Shown: piece after piece, positions 8,904-25,697 of the stretch
Layout: every line of letters starts with the position of its first letter
Numbering within the stretch: position 1 is the first letter of the stretch
NCBI RefSeq assembly: GCF_046105845.1
Contig: NZ_CP151004.1
DNA: 64,000 bases
Direction: 5' to 3' (one strand)
Origin: Escherichia coli
GTDB lineage: Bacteria > Pseudomonadota > Gammaproteobacteria > Enterobacterales > Enterobacteriaceae
Translations under genes and position numbers: made by a program
The notes under the pieces: model-generated
The model's database searches: none
Told to the model about the DNA's origin: nothing
Seen by the model: the letters and a program-made list of their open reading frames with translations, nothing else

Positions 8904-9569
8904 TTAACGCAGGCTTTGCGGCAGCAGTTCATCTACCAGTACATTCAGCCAGTGGTGTAGCCCCCACCAGACGCCCGCCAGTAGCAGCGCCAGTGTTACC
9001 AGCCAGAAAAACGGCGAATGCAGCAAAGGGTGCTGACGGGTGGATAACGGCACGTTCAGTACCGCCGTTTCCGGCAGCACGCCAAATGGCGCGACCTGCC
9101 CGTTGAGCGTCGAAATAAGCTGGTCGCGCTCCGGGGCCACCGGATCCTGATAACGCCCGCGAAATCCCAGCAGCAGGACACGGTGAAAGCAGGTCAGCAC
9201 AGCCTGTGCAGGTGCGGGCTCCTGCAACACCTGCTTCATCCGTTCGTACAGCAGCTCGCCTGCCTGCAGGGTGTTGAAGAAATGCGACTGGAGTGGATCC
9301 TTCATCCAGATGGCCTGACCGTCGTCCATGCCGCCACGGCTCAGGACCGTTTCGTCCAGCAGGGCGCACTGTGCGTAAGTTATGTGCTCCACGCTCTCCC
9401 GGCTGAACCCGGCATCTTTCAGGCGTTCGCGGACCCCTTCCACCTGCCGCTGGCAGTGGCGATACAGCTCCATACCGTGACGCACGGTGGTTCCCTGACG
9501 CAGTTCCACCACCGTCAGAAACGTGTCGCGCAGCAGCGCGTCGATATTGATATCCGTCTCTTTTTTCAT
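8904..9569 (-). CDS. tssL: T6SS membrane-complex protein TssL (DotU family)
   Basis: 221-aa ORF with a DotU-like cytoplasmic domain and a C-terminal transmembrane segment (FFWLVTLALLLAGVWWGL). Start overlaps the tssK stop by 4 bp. Confidence 0.85.
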   Translation of the reverse strand: MKKETDINIDALLRDTFLTVVELRQGTTVRHGMELYRHCQRQVEGVRERLKDAGFSRESVEHITYAQCALLDETVLSRGGMDDGQAIWMKDPLQSHFFNTLQAGELLYERMKQVLQEPAPAQAVLTCFHRVLLLGFRGRYQDPVAPERDQLISTLNGQVAPFGVLPETAVLNVPLSTRQHPLLHSPFFWLVTLALLLAGVWWGLHHWLNVLVDELLPQSLR

Positions 9570-10903
9570 GTGCGCAGCACCGCAAACAGTTCAGGTTTCA
9601 GGTCGCCCATGGTTCCCGGCGCATAAATCATGCAGCACCCGGACTCCAGCATCGATTTGGCCGCGTCACTGTGCATATCCAGCGCAAAATACTGGTTCTC
9701 CAGTCGCAGCGGCAGCGCCGCCGGAACTGAGGTCAGTGGCACCAGTGAAACACCGTTCAGCGCCACATTGATAAGCAGCGTGACGTCATCAGGCGCACCG
9801 ATTTTGCAGACCAGCGGTAGCTGGTGCAGTACCTGATGTGCCGGCAGAGAGGAACGAACGGACAGGTAAAAATCGGCCTCTTCCCGCAGGCGCGGATCGT
9901 GCAGGTCTGCTTTCCAGCGGTTGCCCGGCAGGGACGCCAGCTCCAGTGCGATCACCCGTGACGGCAGGCTGGCTTCCAGCAGTTCGCTGAGCAGGGAGAA
10001 CAGTGGCGGAAAGACGGTGGACGGCGATTCGTGGACATAGGGCGGAACGGCGCTGACGTTATGTTCAAGGGAAAACGTCAGCAGCGCTCCGGCAAGCCTC
10101 GCCAGCTCCCGCCAGACCAGTTCGGGATGAACTGCCGGGTAGCGCAGGAAATCTCTCAGTACCGGCTCAGCAGAATTCAGCGCGTTAAGCAGCCAGAACA
10201 GGGAGACATCGGCGATGGCGAAGTCCGCCATACGCTGGTTGCTTTCCCGGCGCATCGCCATCAGACGCTGACATTTGGCCCGTAGCTGCAACAGCAGCGT
10301 GTCCAGACGCTGTACCAGTCCGTCATGGGCGTTAAACGCCAGTAACGGTGGAATGTAATCGCCGTCCTGCGTCCAGTTGCCCTGAACATCCCGCACCAGA
10401 CGCGCCAGTGGGCAGGTGATGTAATCCTGATTGTTATCATGGACAAAGCGCAGGGACAGCGCATGACGCTCAACGGCCATATCTTCACTGTCACTGCCGT
10501 AGATATCCTGCACCTTTTGCCATTCCTGACGATAGCGTAGCGGTCTTTCAGTCTGCTCACCCTGACCGAGATTACCGCCGTTACCATGGGCAAGCGGCAG
10601 CGCCAGCAGAACAACCGCGCTGTCGTTCGTCAGCGCGTGCAGATCGCAGGCGAGAGGCAGAACATCGCTCACATCTGAATCGATCAGCGTGCCATCAGCA
10701 AAACGCAGGCGTACTGCCTGCGTTTTCAGCTTTCCGGACGTCAGGGCATCGCGGTCAAAGAGCACATTCGCGATCCCCCACGGATGACGAATACAAAGTT
10801 GCGCAATGCTGTCATTGCTGAACGCTTCCCAGCGGGCCTGCTGCTGAAACTGCTGAGAGGACAGGAATGTCCCCTCAGCCCACAGTGGTCGATGAATTTT
10901 CAT
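9566..10903 (-). CDS. tssK: T6SS baseplate protein TssK
   Basis: 445-aa ORF with a typical TssK N-terminus (MKIHRPLWAEGTFLSSQQFQQQ), positioned between tssC and tssL. Confidence 0.85.
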   Translation of the reverse strand: MKIHRPLWAEGTFLSSQQFQQQARWEAFSNDSIAQLCIRHPWGIANVLFDRDALTSGKLKTQAVRLRFADGTLIDSDVSDVLPLACDLHALTNDSAVVLLALPLAHGNGGNLGQGEQTERPLRYRQEWQKVQDIYGSDSEDMAVERHALSLRFVHDNNQDYITCPLARLVRDVQGNWTQDGDYIPPLLAFNAHDGLVQRLDTLLLQLRAKCQRLMAMRRESNQRMADFAIADVSLFWLLNALNSAEPVLRDFLRYPAVHPELVWRELARLAGALLTFSLEHNVSAVPPYVHESPSTVFPPLFSLLSELLEASLPSRVIALELASLPGNRWKADLHDPRLREEADFYLSVRSSLPAHQVLHQLPLVCKIGAPDDVTLLINVALNGVSLVPLTSVPAALPLRLENQYFALDMHSDAAKSMLESGCCMIYAPGTMGDLKPELFAVLRT

Positions 10904-10920
10904 ATCACACCACTTCCCGG

Positions 10921-12459
10921 TCAGGCTTTCGCTTTCGGCATCTGGGAAACCAGTGACAGGTTGATATCCATCCCTTCAATCTGGAAATGCGGCACGGCAA
11001 AGAGTCTGACGCGGAAGAAGCCCGGATTGTCCTCAATATCTTCCACGATAACCTTGCCGTCGCGCAGCGGGTGAGACGCCTGCAGTTCATCACCCGGATC
11101 GGTCATCTCCGTCACCAGTGTGCGGATCCAGGTGTTCAGTTCCAGTTCCAGTACGCGGCGGTCTTTGGTGGTACCGATATTCTCGCGCTGGATGATTTTC
11201 AGGTAATGCGCAATGCGGGACAGCAGGAAGATATAGGGTAAACGGGCGTTAATACGGCTGTTGGCAGTGGCATCAGCGGTATCATACAACGCCGGTTTCT
11301 GGGCAGAGTTTGCCGAGAAGAAGCAGGCGTAATCGCGATTCTTATAATAAGAGAGCGGAATAAAGCCAAGGTTGGCAAATTCAAATTCGCGGGTTTCCGG
11401 GATCATCACTTCGGACGGAATTTTGACCTGATTGCCGGTGCCGAGATCGTAAAGATGGATGGGCAGATCGGTCACTGCGCCACCTGCCTGTGGACCACGG
11501 ATCTGCACACACCAGCCATTATTCACAAAGCTCTTCACCATATTGGCGGCAAAAGCGAACGAGGCGTTTGTCCACAGGTACTTTTCGTGATCCGGACCTT
11601 TGACTTCTTCCACATAGTTAAAGCTGCGTACCGGCACCGTGTCCGGCCCGTACGGCAGACGCCCCAGTACGCGCGGCATCACTAATCCCACATAGCGACT
11701 GTCATCCGTATCGCGGAACGATTTCCATTTAATATATTCTGCGCGGTCAAAGTAGTTGCCGATATCTTTAATCGCGGCGACTTCTTCCATCGAATTTTTA
11801 AGGAAGAATTTCGGCCCGACAGAACCTATAAATGGCATATGGGAAGCGGCAGACACTCTGGAAATATTGCGCAGCAGGGCAATATCCTGCGGGCTGTTAT
11901 CAAATTCATAGCTGGAAATTAATGAGGCAACAGGTTCGCCACCCGGCGTATCGTACTCCTGAATGTATGTATGACGATATAAACCGCTCTGAATGATTTC
12001 CGGGGAGTCGTCGAAATCCTGACGCAGATGCTCTTTGCTGATATCCAGCAATTCAATTCTGACATTTTTGCGAAAATCAGTGCGCTGTACGACGAACCAT
12101 GTGCCGCGCCACAGCGACTCGACTTTCTGGAATTCAGGATGGTGCATTACCGCATCAAGCTGCTTACTGATTTTCTGATCCAAATCGTCGATATGAAAAT
12201 CCAGCAGGCTCTTGTCGAGCTTGACCACGTTCTCGCCTGATTTCGCCAGACAGGAAAGCAGAACGTGAATCGCCGCTGTCACGCGCTCATCGGGTGAGGC
12301 ATCCGCCAGTGTTTCGCTGTTTTGCCATAAATCTATTTCCTGAATGGAAGACACCGGGGTTAAATTAATTTTATCAAACAGGGACTGATAAACGCCGCCG
12401 GACTCAGTGGTGGTCAGTGTTGCAGTTTCAGAGGTGGCATGTTCTTGTTGTACAGACAT
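10921..12459 (-). CDS. tssC: T6SS contractile sheath large subunit TssC (VipB)
   Basis: ORF of 512-514 aa with TssC-like sequence. I place the start at the third Met (12459) because AAGGAA sits 6 nt upstream; the ORF track starts at 12465. Confidence 0.9.
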   Translation of the reverse strand: MSVQQEHATSETATLTTTESGGVYQSLFDKINLTPVSSIQEIDLWQNSETLADASPDERVTAAIHVLLSCLAKSGENVVKLDKSLLDFHIDDLDQKISKQLDAVMHHPEFQKVESLWRGTWFVVQRTDFRKNVRIELLDISKEHLRQDFDDSPEIIQSGLYRHTYIQEYDTPGGEPVASLISSYEFDNSPQDIALLRNISRVSAASHMPFIGSVGPKFFLKNSMEEVAAIKDIGNYFDRAEYIKWKSFRDTDDSRYVGLVMPRVLGRLPYGPDTVPVRSFNYVEEVKGPDHEKYLWTNASFAFAANMVKSFVNNGWCVQIRGPQAGGAVTDLPIHLYDLGTGNQVKIPSEVMIPETREFEFANLGFIPLSYYKNRDYACFFSANSAQKPALYDTADATANSRINARLPYIFLLSRIAHYLKIIQRENIGTTKDRRVLELELNTWIRTLVTEMTDPGDELQASHPLRDGKVIVEDIEDNPGFFRVRLFAVPHFQIEGMDINLSLVSQMPKAKA

Positions 12460-12517
12460 CAGCATTTCCTTTTCAGTGATCCTTTCTTCTCCGGTTTAAC
12501 CTGAATATCACTTCGGG

Positions 12518-13018
12518 TTAAACGTTCTCCTGCGGCGCAATTTTCGCCAGTTCATCACGCAGTTCTGAACTGAGCGTTGGGTCTTTCAGGATATTTTCCA
12601 GTTCACGGCGAAACGTTGCGTTATCCAGCAGATTGGATTTGAGGTCACGTAATAAATTGCGCATAGCGAGTAATACACGAAGCTGTGGGATATTTTTTGC
12701 TACCTGTTCGGGTTCAAAATCTTTCAGGCTTTTAAATTCAAGCGCGATATTTTGTTCATTACCGCTTCCGCTTAGTGTGTCTTCTACTGTTAAATTAACC
12801 GCAGGCGAAAACTCAGCCATGACACTGTTGAAGTTGTTTTTATTGATATCAATCTTGTCCCGTTCGGACAGCGGACGTTGCTCTTTTCCGTTACTGTAAT
12901 CGCCAACAGCAAGAAGCTTGAGGGGGAGTTCAACTTTCTTTTTAGCATTGCCTGTATGCAGGTCAAGCTTGATATTTACACGAGCGGCGGGAACTTCATT
13001 CTGGAAACTGTCGGCCAT
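12518..13018 (-). CDS. tssB: T6SS contractile sheath small subunit TssB (VipA)
   Basis: TssB-like sequence (ARVNIKLDLHTG...ELPLKLLAVGDY). I place the start at the internal Met (MADSFQ) preceded by GAGGAAAAGG; the ORF track extends to 13045, which remains possible. Confidence 0.85.
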   Translation of the reverse strand: MADSFQNEVPAARVNIKLDLHTGNAKKKVELPLKLLAVGDYSNGKEQRPLSERDKIDINKNNFNSVMAEFSPAVNLTVEDTLSGSGNEQNIALEFKSLKDFEPEQVAKNIPQLRVLLAMRNLLRDLKSNLLDNATFRRELENILKDPTLSSELRDELAKIAPQENV

Positions 13019-13045
13019 ATCCTTTTCCTCATCATCCACTTTCAT

Positions 13046-13657
13046 CAGGAGTGCGAGATAATCACGCGTGTGACTATCCCATAAGGATTATGACTATATA
13101 AAGATAAAAAACAAGAACAAATATAGAGACAGAAATATCATTTATAATTGCTGTGAATAATTATACGTCTATCTCGAAATTATATTATTTGAGAACATCA
13201 TCCCATTTTTAGGCGTTTTAGCTGTTAAGCAGACGGTTAAACCTATACATGTGTATACATGCATGAAAATACTGAAAAACAACAAGATCCACATCACAAA
13301 AATTTATTTTTCAGAATGACGGAATTCATGTTTTTTTCGCAAATTATTCACCATGCAAATATTTAATTTTTTTCATGCTTAATAAAATATGATGTTTACT
13401 CATATGCCAACTATGCTACCTGTTGACGCCACACACCAATACACAAAACAAATGCAACAATCACAAACCATAAAAATAAAATATGATTTAGCTATAGTTA
13501 TCAACAAAATAACATCACCACCATTTATAATTTTACTATTGATAAAAAATAGAAACTACGATAAATAATAAAGCATTACTTACCAATCATTCTTTTAAAT
13601 GATTCTGGAATGCAGTCTCCACTGCATAATTGGGCTGTGTTTTTTAAGGAGCAAGTA
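13046..13657. promoter_or_regulatory. 612-bp strongly AT-rich divergent intergenic region upstream of tssB (minus) and an unknown gene (plus); presumed T6SS operon promoter region
   Basis: Unusually long, AT-rich non-coding stretch between divergent genes. One GATC (13286-13289). A GATAATCAC element at 13066-13074 resembles half a Fur box. No promoter hexamers could be assigned with confidence. Confidence 0.5.
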
Positions 13658-14599
13658 ATGCATACCATTCCTTATTATAGCAATAACACCTCTATGCCTG
13701 TCTGGGTTACTGTTAGCGAAGCAACTGATATTATCAATAAGTATACTAACAGCCATATTAAAGATTGTGACTTATGGCGTTATGCACTTTATGGTCACTT
13801 ACCTCTTTCAATTTATTTCCAGTCACAAATAAAGCTTAGAAAAATTTGCCTGAGCGGCGATGAAATCATGCTGGATAACATCGAAGAAAGCATTATTGAG
13901 AAGATAGCTCAGTTAAGTGATACGTGCATATACAATGGGAAAAATAAAATAATAAAGACAGAAGGTGACTATATTTCCCCAGAGCATCATATTATTGATA
14001 CACCATTAATTGGTCATGAATATATTGTATTACAAAGATTACTTGCTCACTCATTAAAAATACCAAAACCTATTACAGGACAGTATAATTCTCATTATGG
14101 TGTTGTCGTCCGTGAAAATGGAATAATTTATCAGGTCTTCGAATCAACTACACTGGAAAACAGAATAACCCAGCGCCTTCGCCATCTTTCAATCCCCGTT
14201 GCAACATACTTTTACGAATCAACAAAATCCCAGGATCTCAAACAGGCAGGAACCCGGTATTTCCCGGTTTATCATTTTCCTGACGATGCCTGGTTCGTTA
14301 TCAAACGCACTGCTCTTGAGCAATTCATAAATACTTTTCTCCCTCCCACTCATAAAAATACCCCTAAAAATGGAACCCGCATTTCTACACCGCTATCACG
14401 ATTTCTCTGGCTAGCGTGTAAGCACAATCATGATATTAGCGCACTGATGGGGCACCCCTACAAACTCCTCTCCGTGTTCGAAGAATGGGCCCGCTCCGAC
14501 GGTATCACTGAACGACTAAATGGAGATACGCTGAAAACCGCACTGGAACGCGGTTCTCCGGTTTTAGCCTACCGTAACTCCGAATTAATGAAATCCTAA
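13658..14599 (+). CDS. hypothetical protein (313 aa), function unknown
   Basis: Long ORF. ATG at 13658 is preceded by AAGGAG at good spacing; the ORF track begins further upstream at 13610. I do not recognise a family. Transcribed divergently from the T6SS operon. Confidence 0.6.
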   Translation: MHTIPYYSNNTSMPVWVTVSEATDIINKYTNSHIKDCDLWRYALYGHLPLSIYFQSQIKLRKICLSGDEIMLDNIEESIIEKIAQLSDTCIYNGKNKIIKTEGDYISPEHHIIDTPLIGHEYIVLQRLLAHSLKIPKPITGQYNSHYGVVVRENGIIYQVFESTTLENRITQRLRHLSIPVATYFYESTKSQDLKQAGTRYFPVYHFPDDAWFVIKRTALEQFINTFLPPTHKNTPKNGTRISTPLSRFLWLACKHNHDISALMGHPYKLLSVFEEWARSDGITERLNGDTLKTALERGSPVLAYRNSELMKS

Positions 14600-14699
14600 C
14601 TTAGAGTCCAGAAATCCTTACTTAGAGGTCTGCTGCTTTCCTTCGGTAGGTCTGATGATGTTGAATTGACTAGCACATCATCAACTACCGGAGGATAAA

Positions 14700-14885
14700 A
14701 TGACGTCACAACGATTTCTGCGGCTGGCACAGGTTATGGATAAAACCGGACTGAAACGCTCACAGGTCTATGCTTATATGAAAACAGGGGATTTCCCAAA
14801 ATCCGTCAAAATTGGCCCGTCCAGCGTAGCATGGCTGGAATCGGAAATTGACGAATGGATCAATACAAAAATAAATAACCGCTAA
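14700..14885 (+). CDS. AlpA-family phage/island transcriptional regulator
   Basis: 61-aa ORF (MTSQRFLRLAQVMDKTGLKRSQVYAYMKTGDFPKSVKIGPSSVAWLESEIDEWI) matching the small AlpA/MerR-like HTH family. GGAGG SD. Confidence 0.8.
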   Translation: MTSQRFLRLAQVMDKTGLKRSQVYAYMKTGDFPKSVKIGPSSVAWLESEIDEWINTKINNR

Positions 14886-14924
14886 TGTAGTATTCTCATT
14901 ATTAGTTTGTTTGAGGTCATTAAT

Positions 14925-15719
14925 ATGAACGATGATCACGGTATTCTTATGCCTGTCGCACTAAATCAGCTACGGGCATTTGATTTAAATCCACGCCTTA
15001 CCAAAAATCCAGAATATGATGAAATTAAAGAATCGATTCGCAACCGCGGGCTGGATTATCCGCCACAAATAACACAACGTCCGGGAGAATCTTTTTATAT
15101 TATTGCCAATGGAGGTAATACCCGGCTGGCAATACTCAACGAGTTATGGCTGGAAACTCACGATAAAAAATACTGGAATATTGTCTGTCATTTCTGGAAG
15201 TGGCATACAGACTGGAGCATTGAAGAAGGTAATTTACACTGCCTGCTTGGTCATCTCGTAGAAAATGATAAACGCGGTTCACTGACATTTATTGAACGGG
15301 CATTAGGGGTTCAAAGTGCAATAAACCTGTATCAAAGTATCCGGGGAAGCTCACAAAGAGATCTGGTACAAATGCTCTGTCAGGCGGGATATCCAGTATC
15401 CACCACGAAACTAAGTATTATGTCCGCGACTATCACATTTCTTTTACCCTATATTCCGGAAGCACTTTACGGTGGTCTGTCGAGACGTATTATCGATAAA
15501 TTGCTGGCACTTCGTTCCAATACGCTAAAATTCTGGGACAACTTCTGCCAGACGTTGCCTCCCGAAAAGGAACAGCAACTCCCTCTATTTGACGATATTT
15601 TTGCTATGGCCCTGACTCCCTTTAATGAACCGATGACAGGTTTTTCACTGGAGCATATTCAGGATGAGCTGACAGGGATTATCAGCAAGACACTTAATGT
15701 GGACTCTGCCCAGCGATAA
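14925..15719 (+). CDS. ParB/sulfiredoxin-like N-terminal domain protein (putative)
   Basis: N-terminal region (LNQLRAFDLNPRLTKNPEYDEIKESIRNRGLDYPPQI...IIANGGNTRLAIL) resembles the ParB N-terminal domain pattern. Start taken at ATG 14925 (GAGG 8 nt upstream); the track ORF starts at 14907. Confidence 0.5.
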   Translation: MNDDHGILMPVALNQLRAFDLNPRLTKNPEYDEIKESIRNRGLDYPPQITQRPGESFYIIANGGNTRLAILNELWLETHDKKYWNIVCHFWKWHTDWSIEEGNLHCLLGHLVENDKRGSLTFIERALGVQSAINLYQSIRGSSQRDLVQMLCQAGYPVSTTKLSIMSATITFLLPYIPEALYGGLSRRIIDKLLALRSNTLKFWDNFCQTLPPEKEQQLPLFDDIFAMALTPFNEPMTGFSLEHIQDELTGIISKTLNVDSAQR

Positions 15720-15916
15720 CGGGATGGCCAGATTTGCGCCGGTGATATATTCAATGCCTCCGCAATCAACCGCTCACCTTTCGGCCAGTGGCTCCTGAGT
15801 GCATTTGCCAGCGTACCGGAGGCCAGCCCGGCTTTGCGGGAAACCGCTGCCAGCGACGTTCCCTGTTTTTTCAGTGCCGCGATAATATCTGCGGGGTGCC
15901 AGTCCTGCTGCATCAT
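15659..15916 (-). CDS. Ner/Nlp-family small DNA-binding protein
   Basis: Sequence from the internal Met (MMQQDWHPADIIAALKKQGTSLAAVSRKAGLASGTLANALRSHWPKGERLIAEALNISPAQIWPSRY) resembles Ner/Nlp (SfsB-like) regulators. ATGA overlap with the integrase stop; GGGAGGG SD. Confidence 0.7.
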   Translation of the reverse strand: MMQQDWHPADIIAALKKQGTSLAAVSRKAGLASGTLANALRSHWPKGERLIAEALNISPAQIWPSRYRWAESTLSVLLIIPVSSS

Positions 15917-17137
15917 ACTGCCCTCCCACAAACCAGCCGTTCGGACGGGATACCACATACACGCTGGCTCCACCACGCCATCACGTCGGTTCTCTGCTCA
16001 AGATAGGTCGAGCGGTTATAAGCGGCGCGCGTCTGATTAGTATCCGCATGAGCCAGTACAGCTTCTATCACATCAGGGGAAAATCCGGCCTCATTCAGCG
16101 TGGTGCTACCCAGCGCCCGGAAACCATGTGACACCAGCTCCCCGCAATACCCCATACGCCGTAGTGCCTTATTGACCGTTTCGCTATTCATTGGTTGCGA
16201 GGGCTTAACCCGACCCGGAAACAGGAACGGCGAGTGTCCACTTATCGGTTTAAGTTGCTCCAGTATCCACAGCATTTCATCAGTCAGGGGCACCAGATGC
16301 TCACGGCGTTTTTTCATACGCTCAGCCGGAATAGTCCATAGCTTTTTCTCCGTATCAATCTCACGCCACATGGTGCCTGACGCTTCTCCGGGGCGCACCA
16401 GCGTCAGCAACTGCCACTTAATCAGATAACGAGTCATCAGCGATAGATTGGTGGTTTCAATCCGCTGTACCAGCTCCGGCAGGCGTTCCGGGCGGATAGA
16501 CGCCATATGCTGTTTTTTCGGCTTCTCAAAGACCTTACCGATGGTCGAGGCTGGATTCGCATCAAGCAGGCCGGAATTGACAGCAAATACCATCACTTCG
16601 TTGATACGCTGGGTTAGACGACGCAGGGTTTCCAGCGCACCTCGTGCCCGGACCGGCTCAAGGGCGGCAATCAGAGTATGTGCTTTCAATTCAGCTACCG
16701 GCATCTGTCCGATTGACGGAAGAACATCCCGTTCCATCGAACGCCAGATATCATCTGCATGCACTTCTGAAATGCCACTGGTCTTTTTAATAGCAAACCA
16801 TCTTGTCGCCACATTGATAAACAGGCTGTCGATTGCTTTCTTTTCCTGTTCTGCGGCTTCCTGCTCCAGCTTTTTCGGATCTACACCCTGAGCCAGCAGA
16901 CCAAGATATTCATCATGTACTGCGGGCAGCAGCAAGAGTTACAGCAGGATAATAACCCAGCGTGATATTGGTACGGGCAGTGGAGTTTGGACGCTGGTAA
17001 CGAAAACGCCAGATTTTCTTCCCGGAAGTACGAACAGAAAGCGTCAGACCATGCCCGTCAGGCAGGTCGTAATCTTTATCGGCGGGTTTTGCTTTTTGTA
17101 CTGCGGCAGCAGTCAGCAGGCGGCGGGTAATGGTCAT
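15913..17137 (-). pseudogene. int: P4-type tyrosine integrase interrupted by a frameshift (N-terminal 74-aa ORF plus 340-aa C-terminal ORF in another frame)
   Basis: ORF 16913-17137 encodes a typical P4-integrase N-terminus (AVQKAKPADKDYDLPDGHGLTL...GYYPAVTLAAAR). ORF 15913-16935 encodes the rest, including the catalytic region (HGFRALGSTTL...LAHADTNQT...Y). The frames overlap at 16913-16935 next to a GGG run (16924-16926). Could also be a homopolymer sequencing error. Confidence 0.75.
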
Positions 17138-17220
17138 GATTTACTCCTCAGTTATCGTCAATGTTAAGCGACGAGGCTGACGTAATATCCTGTTCCACCA
17201 CCACTTTTTCAGCCATAAAC

Positions 17221-17280
17221 TCAGAAATGGCCTACGAAATTTGTCCTCTGGTCGCATAGGCCATTTCATGGGCCATTTTG
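17221..17280. repeat. cluster of short repeats AAATGGCCYA (one direct, two inverted) between integrase and aspV
   Basis: AAATGGCCTA at 17224-17233; TAGGCCATTT at 17256-17265; GGGCCATTTT at 17268-17277. Adjacent palindromes GGATACAGGAGTATCC (17285-17300) and AATTTGTCCT/AGGACAAATT (17236-17245 / 17304-17313). Confidence 0.45.
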
Positions 17281-17319
17281 CACCGGATACAGGAGTATCC
17301 AGCAGGACAAATTCAGACG

Positions 17320-17357
17320 AAAAAAAACCGTATCACCTTGATAGCGATACGGTTTTC
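17320..17357 (-). terminator. rho-independent terminator downstream of aspV
   Basis: On the minus strand: CCGTATC-loop-GATACGG hairpin followed by a run of eight T. Confidence 0.65.
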
Positions 17358-17398
17358 TTACTTCACAGGATGTATAAAAACACCCTGAAATTTGTAAG

Positions 17399-17475
17399 TG
17401 GCGGAACGGACGGGACTCGAACCCGCGACCCCCTGCGTGACAGGCAGGTATTCTAACCGACTGAACTACCGCTCC
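17399..17475 (-). tRNA. aspV: tRNA-Asp (GUC)
   Basis: Reverse complement matches E. coli tRNA-Asp (GGAGCGGTAGTTCAGTCGGTTAGAATACCTGCCTGTCACGCAGGGGGTCGCGGGTTCGAGTCCCGTCCGTTCCGCCA). Position next to dnaQ identifies it as aspV. Confidence 0.97.
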
Positions 17476-17503
17476 GCGTTGTGTTCCGTTGGGAACGAGG
17501 CGA

Positions 17504-17532
17504 ATATTACGGATTGCCTCGTCCTTCGTCAA
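17504..17532 (-). promoter_or_regulatory. putative aspV promoter (-35 TTGACG, 17-bp spacer, -10 TAATAT)
   Basis: On the minus strand TTGACG (17527-17532) and TAATAT (17504-17509), about 30 nt upstream of the tRNA 5' end, with an A/T-rich stretch further upstream. Confidence 0.55.
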
Positions 17533-17607
17533 CGATTTTTCTCATCTTTTGAATCGTTTGCTGCAAAAATCGCCCAAGTCGCTATTTTTAGCGCCTTTTA
17601 CATGTAT

Positions 17608-25620: not shown

Positions 25621-25697
25621 TGGCGGAACGGACGGGACTCGAACCCGCGACCCCCTGCGTGACAGGCAGGTATTCTAACCGACTGAACTACCGCTCC
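25621..25697 (-). tRNA. aspU: tRNA-Asp (GUC), distal tRNA of rrnH
   Basis: Identical in sequence to the aspV copy. Lies 3' of the 5S rRNA. Confidence 0.97.

What the first reader, a model, noticed from the sequence alone, without database searches (positions are those of the whole stretch)
15913..17137. Island integrase is split by a frameshift at a G/C homopolymer: likely decay of mobility
The P4-type integrase is encoded as a 74-aa N-terminal ORF and a 340-aa C-terminal ORF in a different frame, overlapping at 16913-16935 beside a GGG run (16924-16926). Removing one base there would restore a continuous protein of about 410 aa. Loss of integrase function would fix the island in the chromosome. 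A programmed or phase-variable frameshift cannot be excluded.
Basis: partly seen in the sequence, partly recalled or inferred. Interest (0 to 1): 0.4.

Follow-up and report, generated by a model that had tools for sequence, protein, structure and literature searches.

The report
Two-base deletion breaks island integrase
The integrase gene next to the aspV tRNA is an ordinary pseudogene, broken by an inherited 2-bp deletion found in many E. coli strains, in a mobile-element remnant that had already lost its transfer genes.

Summary
A 74-aa ORF (16913-17137, -) and a 340-aa ORF (15913-16935, -) overlap by 23 nt. They match consecutive parts of one integrase profile (NF007246, positions 5-73 and 80-394).

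The lesion is not a change in the GGG/CCC run. Eight intact alleles read GCCCGCACAGTAC and the window reads GCCCGCAGTAC. One CA of a CACA is missing at 16921-16922, and the CCC run is 3 bases long in all 22 loci compared. One intact E. coli allele (L016) matches the window at all 1228 other bases and lies in the same island layout.

The deletion is real and inherited. The identical junction is present in 14 loci from 13 independent samples, whose flanks differ from the window by 0-2% in most.

A programmed frameshift or phase variation is very unlikely. Homologues are single ORFs of about 400 aa, there is no slippery site or significant RNA structure, and the repeat has only two units.

The "decay" reading is right but incomplete. 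The element had already lost its relaxase and neighbouring genes through a 6.1-kb deletion. No second att repeat is detectable. The adjacent T6SS cluster is in 1430 of 5426 complete E. coli genomes, and this integrase is in one.

This is ordinary and of low interest.

The parts
17399..17475 (-). tRNA-Asp (aspV). Its 3' end is the presumed integration site (attL side) of the element.
   Evidence: ARAGORN. dnaQ and rnhA lie beyond it. An identical second copy, aspU, is at 25621-25697.
15913..17137 (-). Whole integrase pseudogene. It would be 408 aa once the missing CA is restored.
   Evidence: Intact orthologues of 408 aa are in L001 and L016-L022. L016 is identical to the window at all 1228 other bases.
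16913..17137 (-). N-terminal fragment of 74 aa. It holds residues 1-72 of the arm-type DNA-binding domain, then 2 out-of-frame residues and a TGA stop.
   Evidence: NF007246 positions 5-73. Pfam Arm-DNA-bind_3 spans residues 8-94 of the intact protein. Solved N-domains 3ju0 and 3jtz align to 8-94 and 8-85.
16921..16923 (-). Site of the 2-bp deletion. The coding strand reads CGCAG where intact alleles read CGCACAG. The surviving CA is at 16922-16921.
   Evidence: Pairwise alignment. Junction strings of 22 loci. Gap columns 216-217 of the gene alignment.
15913..16935 (-). C-terminal ORF of 340 aa, opening at a TTG. Real homology starts at VHDEYL. It contains the core-binding and catalytic domains, with the R, K, HxxR, H and Y motifs present.
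   Evidence: NF007246 positions 80-394. Pfam Phage_int_M 107-200 and Phage_integrase 215-379 on the intact protein. Motif alignment to XerA 4a8e. No Shine-Dalgarno-like sequence precedes the TTG (read).
15659..15916 (-). Ner/SfsB-like HTH_35 gene, 85 aa. Its start overlaps the integrase stop (ATGA). It is truncated compared with the 116-aa form in E. fergusonii.
   Evidence: NF007670 (SfsB) E 5e-28, below its cut-off. PF13693 on the identical locus L002. The 116-aa form is in L020.
15702..15706 (.). Junction of a ~6.1-kb internal deletion relative to the E. fergusonii element. The deletion removed the TraI_2 relaxase, a ParA-like gene, DUF2857 and other genes.
   Evidence: BLAST of the window region against L020. 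Region positions 9663-11433 match L020 9663-11435, and 11436-15083 match L020 17571-21227. L020 gene list.
14925..15719 (+). PFGI-1-type ICE ParB-family gene, truncated to 264-270 aa.
   Evidence: TIGR03764 E 7e-81. Gene call on L002, which is 100% identical to the window here.
14700..14885 (+). AlpA-family small HTH protein of 61 aa, a candidate excisionase or regulator of the element.
   Evidence: PF05930 on L002/L010, which are identical to the window here. Annotated as an AlpA family regulator in L023.
1..13045 (-). Type VI secretion cluster (tssB, tssC, tssK, tssL, OmpA-family, hcp, tssH, vgrG and more). It runs off the window start.
   Evidence: TIGR03358 and TIGR03355. Gene lists of L007, L016 and L023. 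Present in 1430 of 5426 complete E. coli genomes.

Best explanation
The gene is a tRNA-Asp-associated, P4/CP4-57-type tyrosine integrase. It was inactivated by one fixed 2-bp deletion, one CA of a CACA after codon 72.

The deletion shifts the frame inside the N-terminal arm-type DNA-binding domain. Translation from the native ATG ends after 74 residues. The core-binding and catalytic domains remain only as an out-of-frame ORF with a TTG start and no recognisable ribosome-binding site, so no full-length integrase is made (inferred).

The mutation most likely arose once and is now carried by many E. coli lineages. It reached several integrase haplotypes through homologous recombination.

It is a late step in the erosion of a PFGI-1/ICEclc-like integrative element at tRNA-Asp. 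By then the element had already lost its relaxase and transfer genes, and it survives as a short remnant between aspV and a widespread T6SS cluster.
For: Shown:
- Split ORFs at the stated coordinates.
- The two ORFs match consecutive parts of one integrase profile.
- The intact orthologue has the three-domain architecture, and the break falls at residue 73, inside Arm-DNA-bind_3 (residues 8-94).
- The window lacks CA relative to SC418 and relative to 7 further intact loci.
- L016-L019 are identical to the window over 1228 nt apart from the CA, and have the same island gene order.
- The identical junction is present in 14 loci from 13 samples (NCBI, ENA and Logan assemblies). Flank identity to the window is 98.1-100% in most.
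- The exact 74-aa product is indexed in 42 blocks of the collection.
- 6071 homologues have E<=1e-30. The 120 best listed are 344-417 aa, and each carries all three domains in one protein.
- All four allele combinations occur for deletion x site 435, but also for the ordinary SNP pair -251 x 435. This points to recombination and not to a hypermutable site.
- Changes private to split alleles are 4 non-synonymous to 1 synonymous.
- A 6.1-kb deletion of the relaxase region relative to E. fergusonii L020.
- No second aspV 3'-end repeat.

Inferred:
- The C-terminal ORF is poorly translated or not translated.
- The recombination activity is lost.
Against: - The 340-aa ORF is still open in every split locus that no IS has hit, and it keeps the catalytic motifs. 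Some residual arm-independent activity cannot be excluded.
- The deletion sits on at least four integrase haplotypes, and an intact allele shares the window's haplotype. A single origin therefore needs intragenic recombination, or recurrence, or reversion.
- No expression or excision data exist here.
- The far end of the island lies outside the window. Absence of attR was tested only in the window and in one related complete locus.
Confidence: 0.88

Rival explanations
1. Sequencing or assembly error: the genome really carries an intact integrase, and the 2-bp gap is an artefact of this assembly.
For: Frameshifts in single assemblies are often artefacts, and the site lies next to a short homopolymer.
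Against: The identical junction GCCCGCAGTAC occurs in 14 loci from 13 samples and several projects and assemblers (ERR4034258, SRR12122256, SRR12122260, SRR31598815, SRR23081384, SRR11297190, SRR17643458, SRR6362744, SRR15695642, ERZ27294575, ERZ27281048, GCA_946407305.1, GCA_045607385.1). A 2-bp loss outside the homopolymer is not a typical platform error. The CCC run does not vary.
Confidence: 0.01
2. Programmed +1 (or -2) ribosomal frameshift: full-length integrase is made at a regulated low level by recoding within the 23-nt overlap.
For: The two ORFs overlap, the C-terminal ORF is still open in all non-IS-disrupted carriers, and the allele is widespread.
Against: - Eight close intact alleles and the 120 best homologues encode the protein in one frame, so the shift is derived and not a conserved feature.
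- No P-site codon in the overlap (CUU GCU GCU GCC CGC AGU ACA UGA) can re-pair in the +1 frame, and there is no prfB-like CUU UGA C with an upstream Shine-Dalgarno sequence (read).
- The local RNA fold is not unusual (z = -1.5).
- Substitutions private to split alleles are mostly non-synonymous, 4 to 1.
- Later IS truncation of the same allele (L006, L015) shows it is dispensable.
Confidence: 0.02
3. Hypermutable or phase-variable site: the CA/CACA (or CCC) tract switches reversibly and turns integrase on and off, which would explain why the deletion appears on several haplotypes.
For: The deletion and the intact state both occur on the window-type haplotype (435T/523A/694A) and on the ancestral-type haplotype (435C/523G/694G). 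That is homoplasy at this site.
Against: - The tract has two dinucleotide units, or three C, far below the lengths of known contingency loci (established knowledge).
- The CCC run never varies.
- An ordinary SNP pair (-251 and 435) also shows all four combinations, so recombination in this interval explains the pattern.
- Site -251 against the deletion shows only three combinations, consistent with a single origin.
- Near-identical carriers (L002-L005, L010) all share the deleted state.
- Other lineages inactivated the gene by different lesions (products of 110, 138, 149, 181, 195, 205 and 224 aa).
Confidence: 0.04
4. Retained, domesticated arm-less recombinase: the 340-aa C-terminal protein (alone or with the 74-aa piece) is expressed and serves a new role, so the split is tolerated or selected.
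For: - The ORF is open in 12 of 14 carrier loci, across backgrounds up to ~2% diverged.
- The catalytic motifs are intact.
- The split allele is among the most frequent forms of this integrase in the collection: 42 index blocks, against 5-31 contigs for each intact E. coli variant. The two counts use different units.
Against: - The start is a TTG with no Shine-Dalgarno sequence, and there is no in-frame ATG before residue 67.
- The break removes the last part of the arm domain, so the 74-aa piece is probably unfolded.
- The private substitutions are 4 non-synonymous to 1 synonymous.
- IS elements have destroyed or deleted the gene in several relatives.
- The few substitutions mean the ORF may simply be too young to have collected stop codons.
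Confidence: 0.05

Closest known systems
P4 / CP4-57 (IntA, IntS)-type tyrosine integrases of tRNA-linked genomic islands (NCBIfam NF007246 / PRK09692; Pfam PF13356 + PF22022 + PF00589)
   Same: - The same three-domain architecture.
- About 400 aa when repaired.
- Located just 3' of a tRNA gene and transcribed away from it.
- An AlpA-family gene lies nearby.
- The intact orthologue scores 495.6 bits against a cut-off of 434.
   Different: In the window the gene is split by a 2-bp deletion. Neither fragment reaches the family cut-off (426.7 and 67.7 bits). No flanking att repeat could be found.
Degenerate integrases of fixed tRNA-associated islands, such as the aspV-linked T6SS islands of E. coli (LF82 PAI I) and Salmonella (SPI-6, SPI-20)
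   Same: aspV is a documented insertion hot-spot that carries T6SS islands. [quoted passage not shown] The window has the same locus, the same type of cargo and the same lack of repeats.
   Different: In the window the integrase belongs to a short ICE remnant that lies between aspV and the T6SS cluster. This integrase is rare in E. coli: 1 of 5426 complete genomes.
PFGI-1 / ICEclc-family integrative conjugative elements
   Same: The ParB-family protein matches TIGR03764 (ICE_PFGI_1_parB). The fuller E. fergusonii version carries a TraI_2 relaxase, a ParA-like gene and DUF2857.
   Different: Only fragments remain. No relaxase or type IV secretion genes are present in the window, and the ParB and HTH_35 genes are truncated by a 6.1-kb deletion.
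Programmed +1 frameshifting (prfB) and the programmed -1 frameshift of IS3-family transposases
   Same: Two overlapping ORFs together encode one protein.
   Different: There is no slippery motif, no stimulatory structure and no conservation of the shift among homologues.

Membership tests
P4/CP4-57-type tyrosine integrase (NF007246) | N-terminal Arm-DNA-bind_3 (DUF4102), central Phage_int_M and C-terminal Phage_integrase domains in one polypeptide | tested here: not met
In the window the domains are split over two frames, and the fragments score 67.7 and 426.7 bits, both below the cut-off. It is therefore a pseudogene of this family.
P4/CP4-57-type tyrosine integrase (NF007246) | Catalytic R...K...HxxR...H/W...Y residues | tested here: met
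   VRPGE, MKKRREHLVPL, HGFRALG, LAHAD and AAYNR are present in the 340-aa ORF. K, HxxR, H and Y align with XerA 4a8e. The first R is assigned by motif only.
P4/CP4-57-type tyrosine integrase (NF007246) | Gene lies immediately 3' of a tRNA gene that provides attB | tested here: met
   tRNA-Asp is at 17399-17475 (-) and the integrase ATG is at 17137. In E. fergusonii the same gene lies next to the other tRNA-Asp copy.
Excisable genomic island / ICE | Direct repeat of the tRNA 3' end at the distal boundary (attR) | tested here: not met
   There is no second match to the 24-nt or 49-nt aspV 3' segment (up to 3 mismatches) in the window apart from aspU. There is none in the whole aspV-yafV interval of L023 (24-mer with up to 3 mismatches, 17-mer with up to 2). 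The distal end of the window's own island lies outside the window.
Excisable genomic island / ICE | Relaxase and conjugation or mobilisation genes | tested here: not met
   None lie between the integrase and the T6SS cluster. The TraI_2 relaxase present in E. fergusonii L020 is deleted here.
Programmed ribosomal frameshift gene | Frameshift conserved among homologues, with a slippery or shift-prone motif and a stimulator | tested here: not met
   Homologues are single ORFs. Eight close alleles are unshifted. No re-pairing codon is present in the overlap. The RNA fold has z = -1.5.
Phase-variable contingency locus | Long simple-sequence repeat whose length varies among close relatives | tested here: not met
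   The tracts are (CA)2 to (CA)1 and CCC only. The CCC run is constant in 22 loci. Near-identical carriers all share one state. Read-level heterogeneity cannot be tested with these tools.

The most novel reading that the evidence does not exclude
The CA/CACA site is a recurrent, possibly reversible mutational hot-spot, or the arm-less 340-aa recombinase is kept for a new function. Either would explain why the same 2-bp deletion is among the most frequent forms of this integrase in the collection, why it sits on several haplotypes, and why its C-terminal ORF is still open in backgrounds up to ~2% diverged.
Probability: 0.06. Interest if true: 0.45.

Novelty: already known. Interest (0 to 1): 0.08.

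Why it matters
It matters little beyond annotation. The two ORFs should be annotated as one integrase pseudogene. RefSeq currently lists the 74-aa piece as a protein, WP_407228126.1.

The aspV-proximal module should be read as a dead ICE remnant, not as the mobility engine of the T6SS island.

The shared 2-bp deletion is a convenient lineage or recombination marker for this locus.

Tried and rejected
- **Homopolymer slippage at GGG/CCC.** Rejected: the run has 3 bases in all 22 loci.
- **Assembly error.** Rejected on 13 independent samples.
- **Search for attR.** Patterns of 49, 24 and 17 nt from the aspV 3' end were searched in the window and in L023. Only the tRNA genes themselves matched.
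- **Full-length tyrosine recombinase structure for mapping catalytic residues.** Only separate N-terminal and core-binding domain structures and a weak XerA hit were found. The first catalytic Arg is therefore assigned by motif only.
- **Promoter scan of 15600-17480.** No sigma-70-like site was found, which is uninformative.
- **RNA structure around the overlap.** Not significant.
- **dN/dS on split alleles.** Only 5 private substitutions exist, so there is no statistical power.
- **Recurrent mutation as the cause of the haplotype homoplasy.** Considered, but recombination is favoured because ordinary SNPs show the same four-combination pattern.
- **Literature search (aspV + type VI secretion + integrase).** It gave only general descriptions of aspV T6SS islands and nothing on this integrase.

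Full report
**1. Observation**

The ORF list gives two ORFs on the minus strand. One is 74 aa (16913..17137) and the other is 340 aa (15913..16935), in a different frame. They overlap by 23 nt. The + strand has GGG at 16924-16926.

tRNA-Asp lies at 17399-17475 (-), 261 nt upstream of the integrase ATG. dnaQ and rnhA lie beyond it, so this is the aspV locus of an Escherichia chromosome. The dnaQ-mltD flank is 95-99% identical to essentially all 5426 complete E. coli genomes, with a best value of 99.0%.

The two ORFs are halves of one gene. Against NCBIfam NF007246 (PRK09692 integrase), the 74-aa ORF matches profile positions 5-73 and the 340-aa ORF matches positions 80-394.

**2. The lesion**

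Only one of 5426 complete E. coli genomes carries this integrase. It is SC418 (NZ_LR778147.1), 99.0% identical, also at aspV, and annotated as an intact 408-aa protein.

The pairwise alignment has a single indel. SC418 reads GCTGCCCGCACAGTACAT and the window reads GCTGCCCG--CAGTACAT.

I fetched 21 further loci through exact-protein look-ups.
- All 8 intact loci (L001, L016-L022) read GCCCGCACAGTAC.
- All 14 split loci (L002-L015) read GCCCGCAGTAC, as the window does.
- The CCC run is 3 bases long in every locus.

The lesion is therefore loss of one CA from a CACA. On the + strand this is a TG beside 16921-16922, one base away from the GGG run. It is not a homopolymer length change.

Restoring CA gives ...TLAAARTVHDEYLGLLAQGVDP... 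and a 408-aa protein. That stretch aligns without a gap to the solved N-terminal domain 3ju0 (LADARQRRDEAKKLLAAGIDP).

**3. The gene**

The intact protein has three Pfam domains:

| Domain | Residues |
|---|---|
| Arm-DNA-bind_3 | 8-94 |
| Phage_int_M | 107-200 |
| Phage_integrase | 215-379 |

It scores above the NF007246 cut-off, 495.6 bits against 434. This is the P4/CP4-57-type architecture of tRNA-linked island integrases.

The break at residue 73 lies inside the arm-binding domain. The C-terminal ORF keeps the catalytic motifs: VRPGE, the K of MKKRREHLVPL, HGFRALG, LAHAD and AAYNR. These were partly checked by alignment to XerA 4a8e.

The C-terminal ORF opens with a TTG preceded by CCTGCTGTAACTC, which has no Shine-Dalgarno-like sequence. 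It has no in-frame ATG before residue 67. I infer that it is translated poorly or not at all.

**4. Real mutation or artefact**

The exact 340-aa product is in the public collection on 9 contigs. The exact 74-aa product (WP_407228126.1) is indexed in 42 blocks of the collection.

The fetched carriers come from 13 samples: ERR4034258, SRR12122256, SRR12122260, SRR31598815, SRR23081384, SRR11297190, SRR17643458, SRR6362744, SRR15695642, ERZ27294575, ERZ27281048, GCA_946407305.1 and GCA_045607385.1. All have the identical junction. An assembly artefact is excluded.

Carrier flanks are 98.1-100% identical to the window in most loci, so the allele is spread over distinct E. coli backgrounds.

**5. 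Intact counterpart and haplotypes**

L016 (GCA_052981255.1) and L017-L019 encode an intact 408-aa integrase. Its DNA is identical to the window at all 1228 other positions.

They have the same gene order: aspV, integrase, HTH_35 (85 aa), ParB' (264 aa), AlpA (61 aa), a 313-aa ORF, then T6SS.

The deletion occurs on at least four integrase haplotypes. The haplotype table shows:
- All four allele combinations occur for deletion x site 435.
- All four also occur for the ordinary SNP pair -251 x 435.
- Only three occur for -251 x deletion.

Recombination between -251 and 435 therefore explains the distribution, and a hypermutable site is not needed. A single origin followed by recombination is the most economical reading, though recurrence cannot be formally excluded.

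Substitutions private to split alleles are G309V, M329I, R216C, R219H and one synonymous change. This fits relaxed constraint, but five changes give no statistical power.

**6. Programmed frameshift or phase variation**

- Of 6071 homologues at E<=1e-30, the 120 best are 344-417 aa, and each carries all three domains in one protein. The frameshift is derived.
- Going from the N frame to the C frame needs a +1 shift. None of the overlap codons (CUU GCU GCU GCC CGC AGU ACA UGA) allows P-site re-pairing in +1. There is no prfB-like motif.
- The RNA around the site folds no better than shuffled sequence (z = -1.5).
- The repeat has two units, far below contingency-locus lengths.
- Near-identical carriers all share one state.
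- Other lineages inactivated the same gene in other ways, giving products of 110, 138, 149, 181, 195, 205 and 224 aa and one 350-aa form with an internal deletion.
- In L006 and L015 an IS3-family element has further truncated the split allele to 244 aa.

Both readings are very unlikely.

**7. Context: how much mobility was left to lose**

In E. fergusonii (L020) the same integrase differs by 4 nt. It is followed by a full 116-aa HTH_35 gene, a 613-aa TraI_2 relaxase, a ParA-like gene, DUF2857, AlpA and the 308-aa ORF, before the T6SS.

Relative to that, the window has a clean ~6.1-kb deletion. L020 positions 11436-17570 are missing, and the junction is near window 15704. The deletion fuses a truncated HTH_35 gene (15659-15916, -) to a truncated PFGI-1-type ParB gene (14925-15719, +; TIGR03764).

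The element was therefore already a non-conjugative remnant when, or wherever, the integrase broke.

No second copy of the aspV 3' end exists in the window apart from aspU. None exists in the complete aspV-yafV interval of the related genome CFIAFB20140388 (L023).

The T6SS cluster of window 1-13045 is found in 1430 of 5426 complete E. coli genomes. This integrase is found in one, and the ParB/AlpA module in two.

The literature describes aspV as an insertion hot-spot for T6SS islands. At least one of these (SPI-20) is reported as lacking obvious flanking repeats (PMC2907695; PMC2941450).

The statement that loss of the integrase 'would fix the island' is thus only nominally true. The island shows every sign of having been fixed already.

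**8. Verdict**

| Item | Result |
|---|---|
| Observation | Confirmed |
| Lesion | Re-defined as a 2-bp CA deletion, not a homopolymer change |
| Artefact | Excluded |
| Recoding or phase variation | Very unlikely |
| Interpretation as decay | Supported, but as a late and minor step |

This is an ordinary integrase pseudogene of a known family in a well-known insertion hot-spot. It is of low interest and no categorical novelty.

The only mildly unusual point is that one specific 2-bp deletion is among the most frequent forms of this integrase in the collection and sits on several haplotypes. I attribute this to recombination.

Noticed in passing
L020 9663-11227; L021 157-1721; L022 36-1600 (E. 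fergusonii): The same integrase (4 nt different) lies next to the tRNA-Asp that follows the rrnH operon (aspU), not next to aspV as in E. coli. Both identical tRNA-Asp copies have therefore served as insertion sites, or the segment was moved by recombination between them.
   Followed up: partly
window ~15704 (junction); 14925-15916: A ~6.1-kb deletion relative to E. fergusonii L020 removed the TraI_2 relaxase, a ParA-like gene, DUF2857 and other genes. It left convergent, overlapping truncated HTH_35 and PFGI-1-type ParB ORFs.
   Followed up: partly
L001 7824-9037; L023 1411-2624; L006 10907-12120; L015 1194-2371: IS3-family elements lie at different positions in this locus (annotated ISEc31 in L001 and L023; the element in L006/L015 is identified only by Pfam domains). 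In SC418 the integrase is intact but the whole T6SS is missing. In CFIAFB20140388 the integrase is replaced. In L006/L015 the split integrase is truncated to 244 aa and tssB and its neighbours are missing.
   Followed up: partly
window 13610-14599 (+): A conserved ORF of 308-329 aa lies between the AlpA gene and tssB. It has no NCBIfam or Pfam hit. It is present in all E. coli and E. fergusonii versions of the module.
   Followed up: no
window 1-13045: A T6SS cluster (tssB, tssC, tssK, tssL, OmpA-family, hcp, tssH, vgrG and more) runs off the window start. It is present in 1430 of 5426 complete E. coli genomes. In the related L023 locus, two genes in the T6SS interval (an ImcF-related gene and a hypothetical gene) are annotated as frameshifted.
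   Followed up: no
protein clusters (P0128, P0130, P0132, P0133, P0136-P0140): The same integrase has been inactivated independently many times in E. coli and E. fergusonii. Truncated products of 110, 138, 149, 181, 195, 205 and 224 aa exist, plus a 350-aa form with an internal deletion of the arm domain.
   Followed up: partly
window 16913-17137: RefSeq lists the 74-aa fragment, and the 244-aa IS-truncated fragment of another genome, as ordinary proteins (WP_407228126.1, WP_407228125.1) and not as a pseudogene.
   Followed up: no
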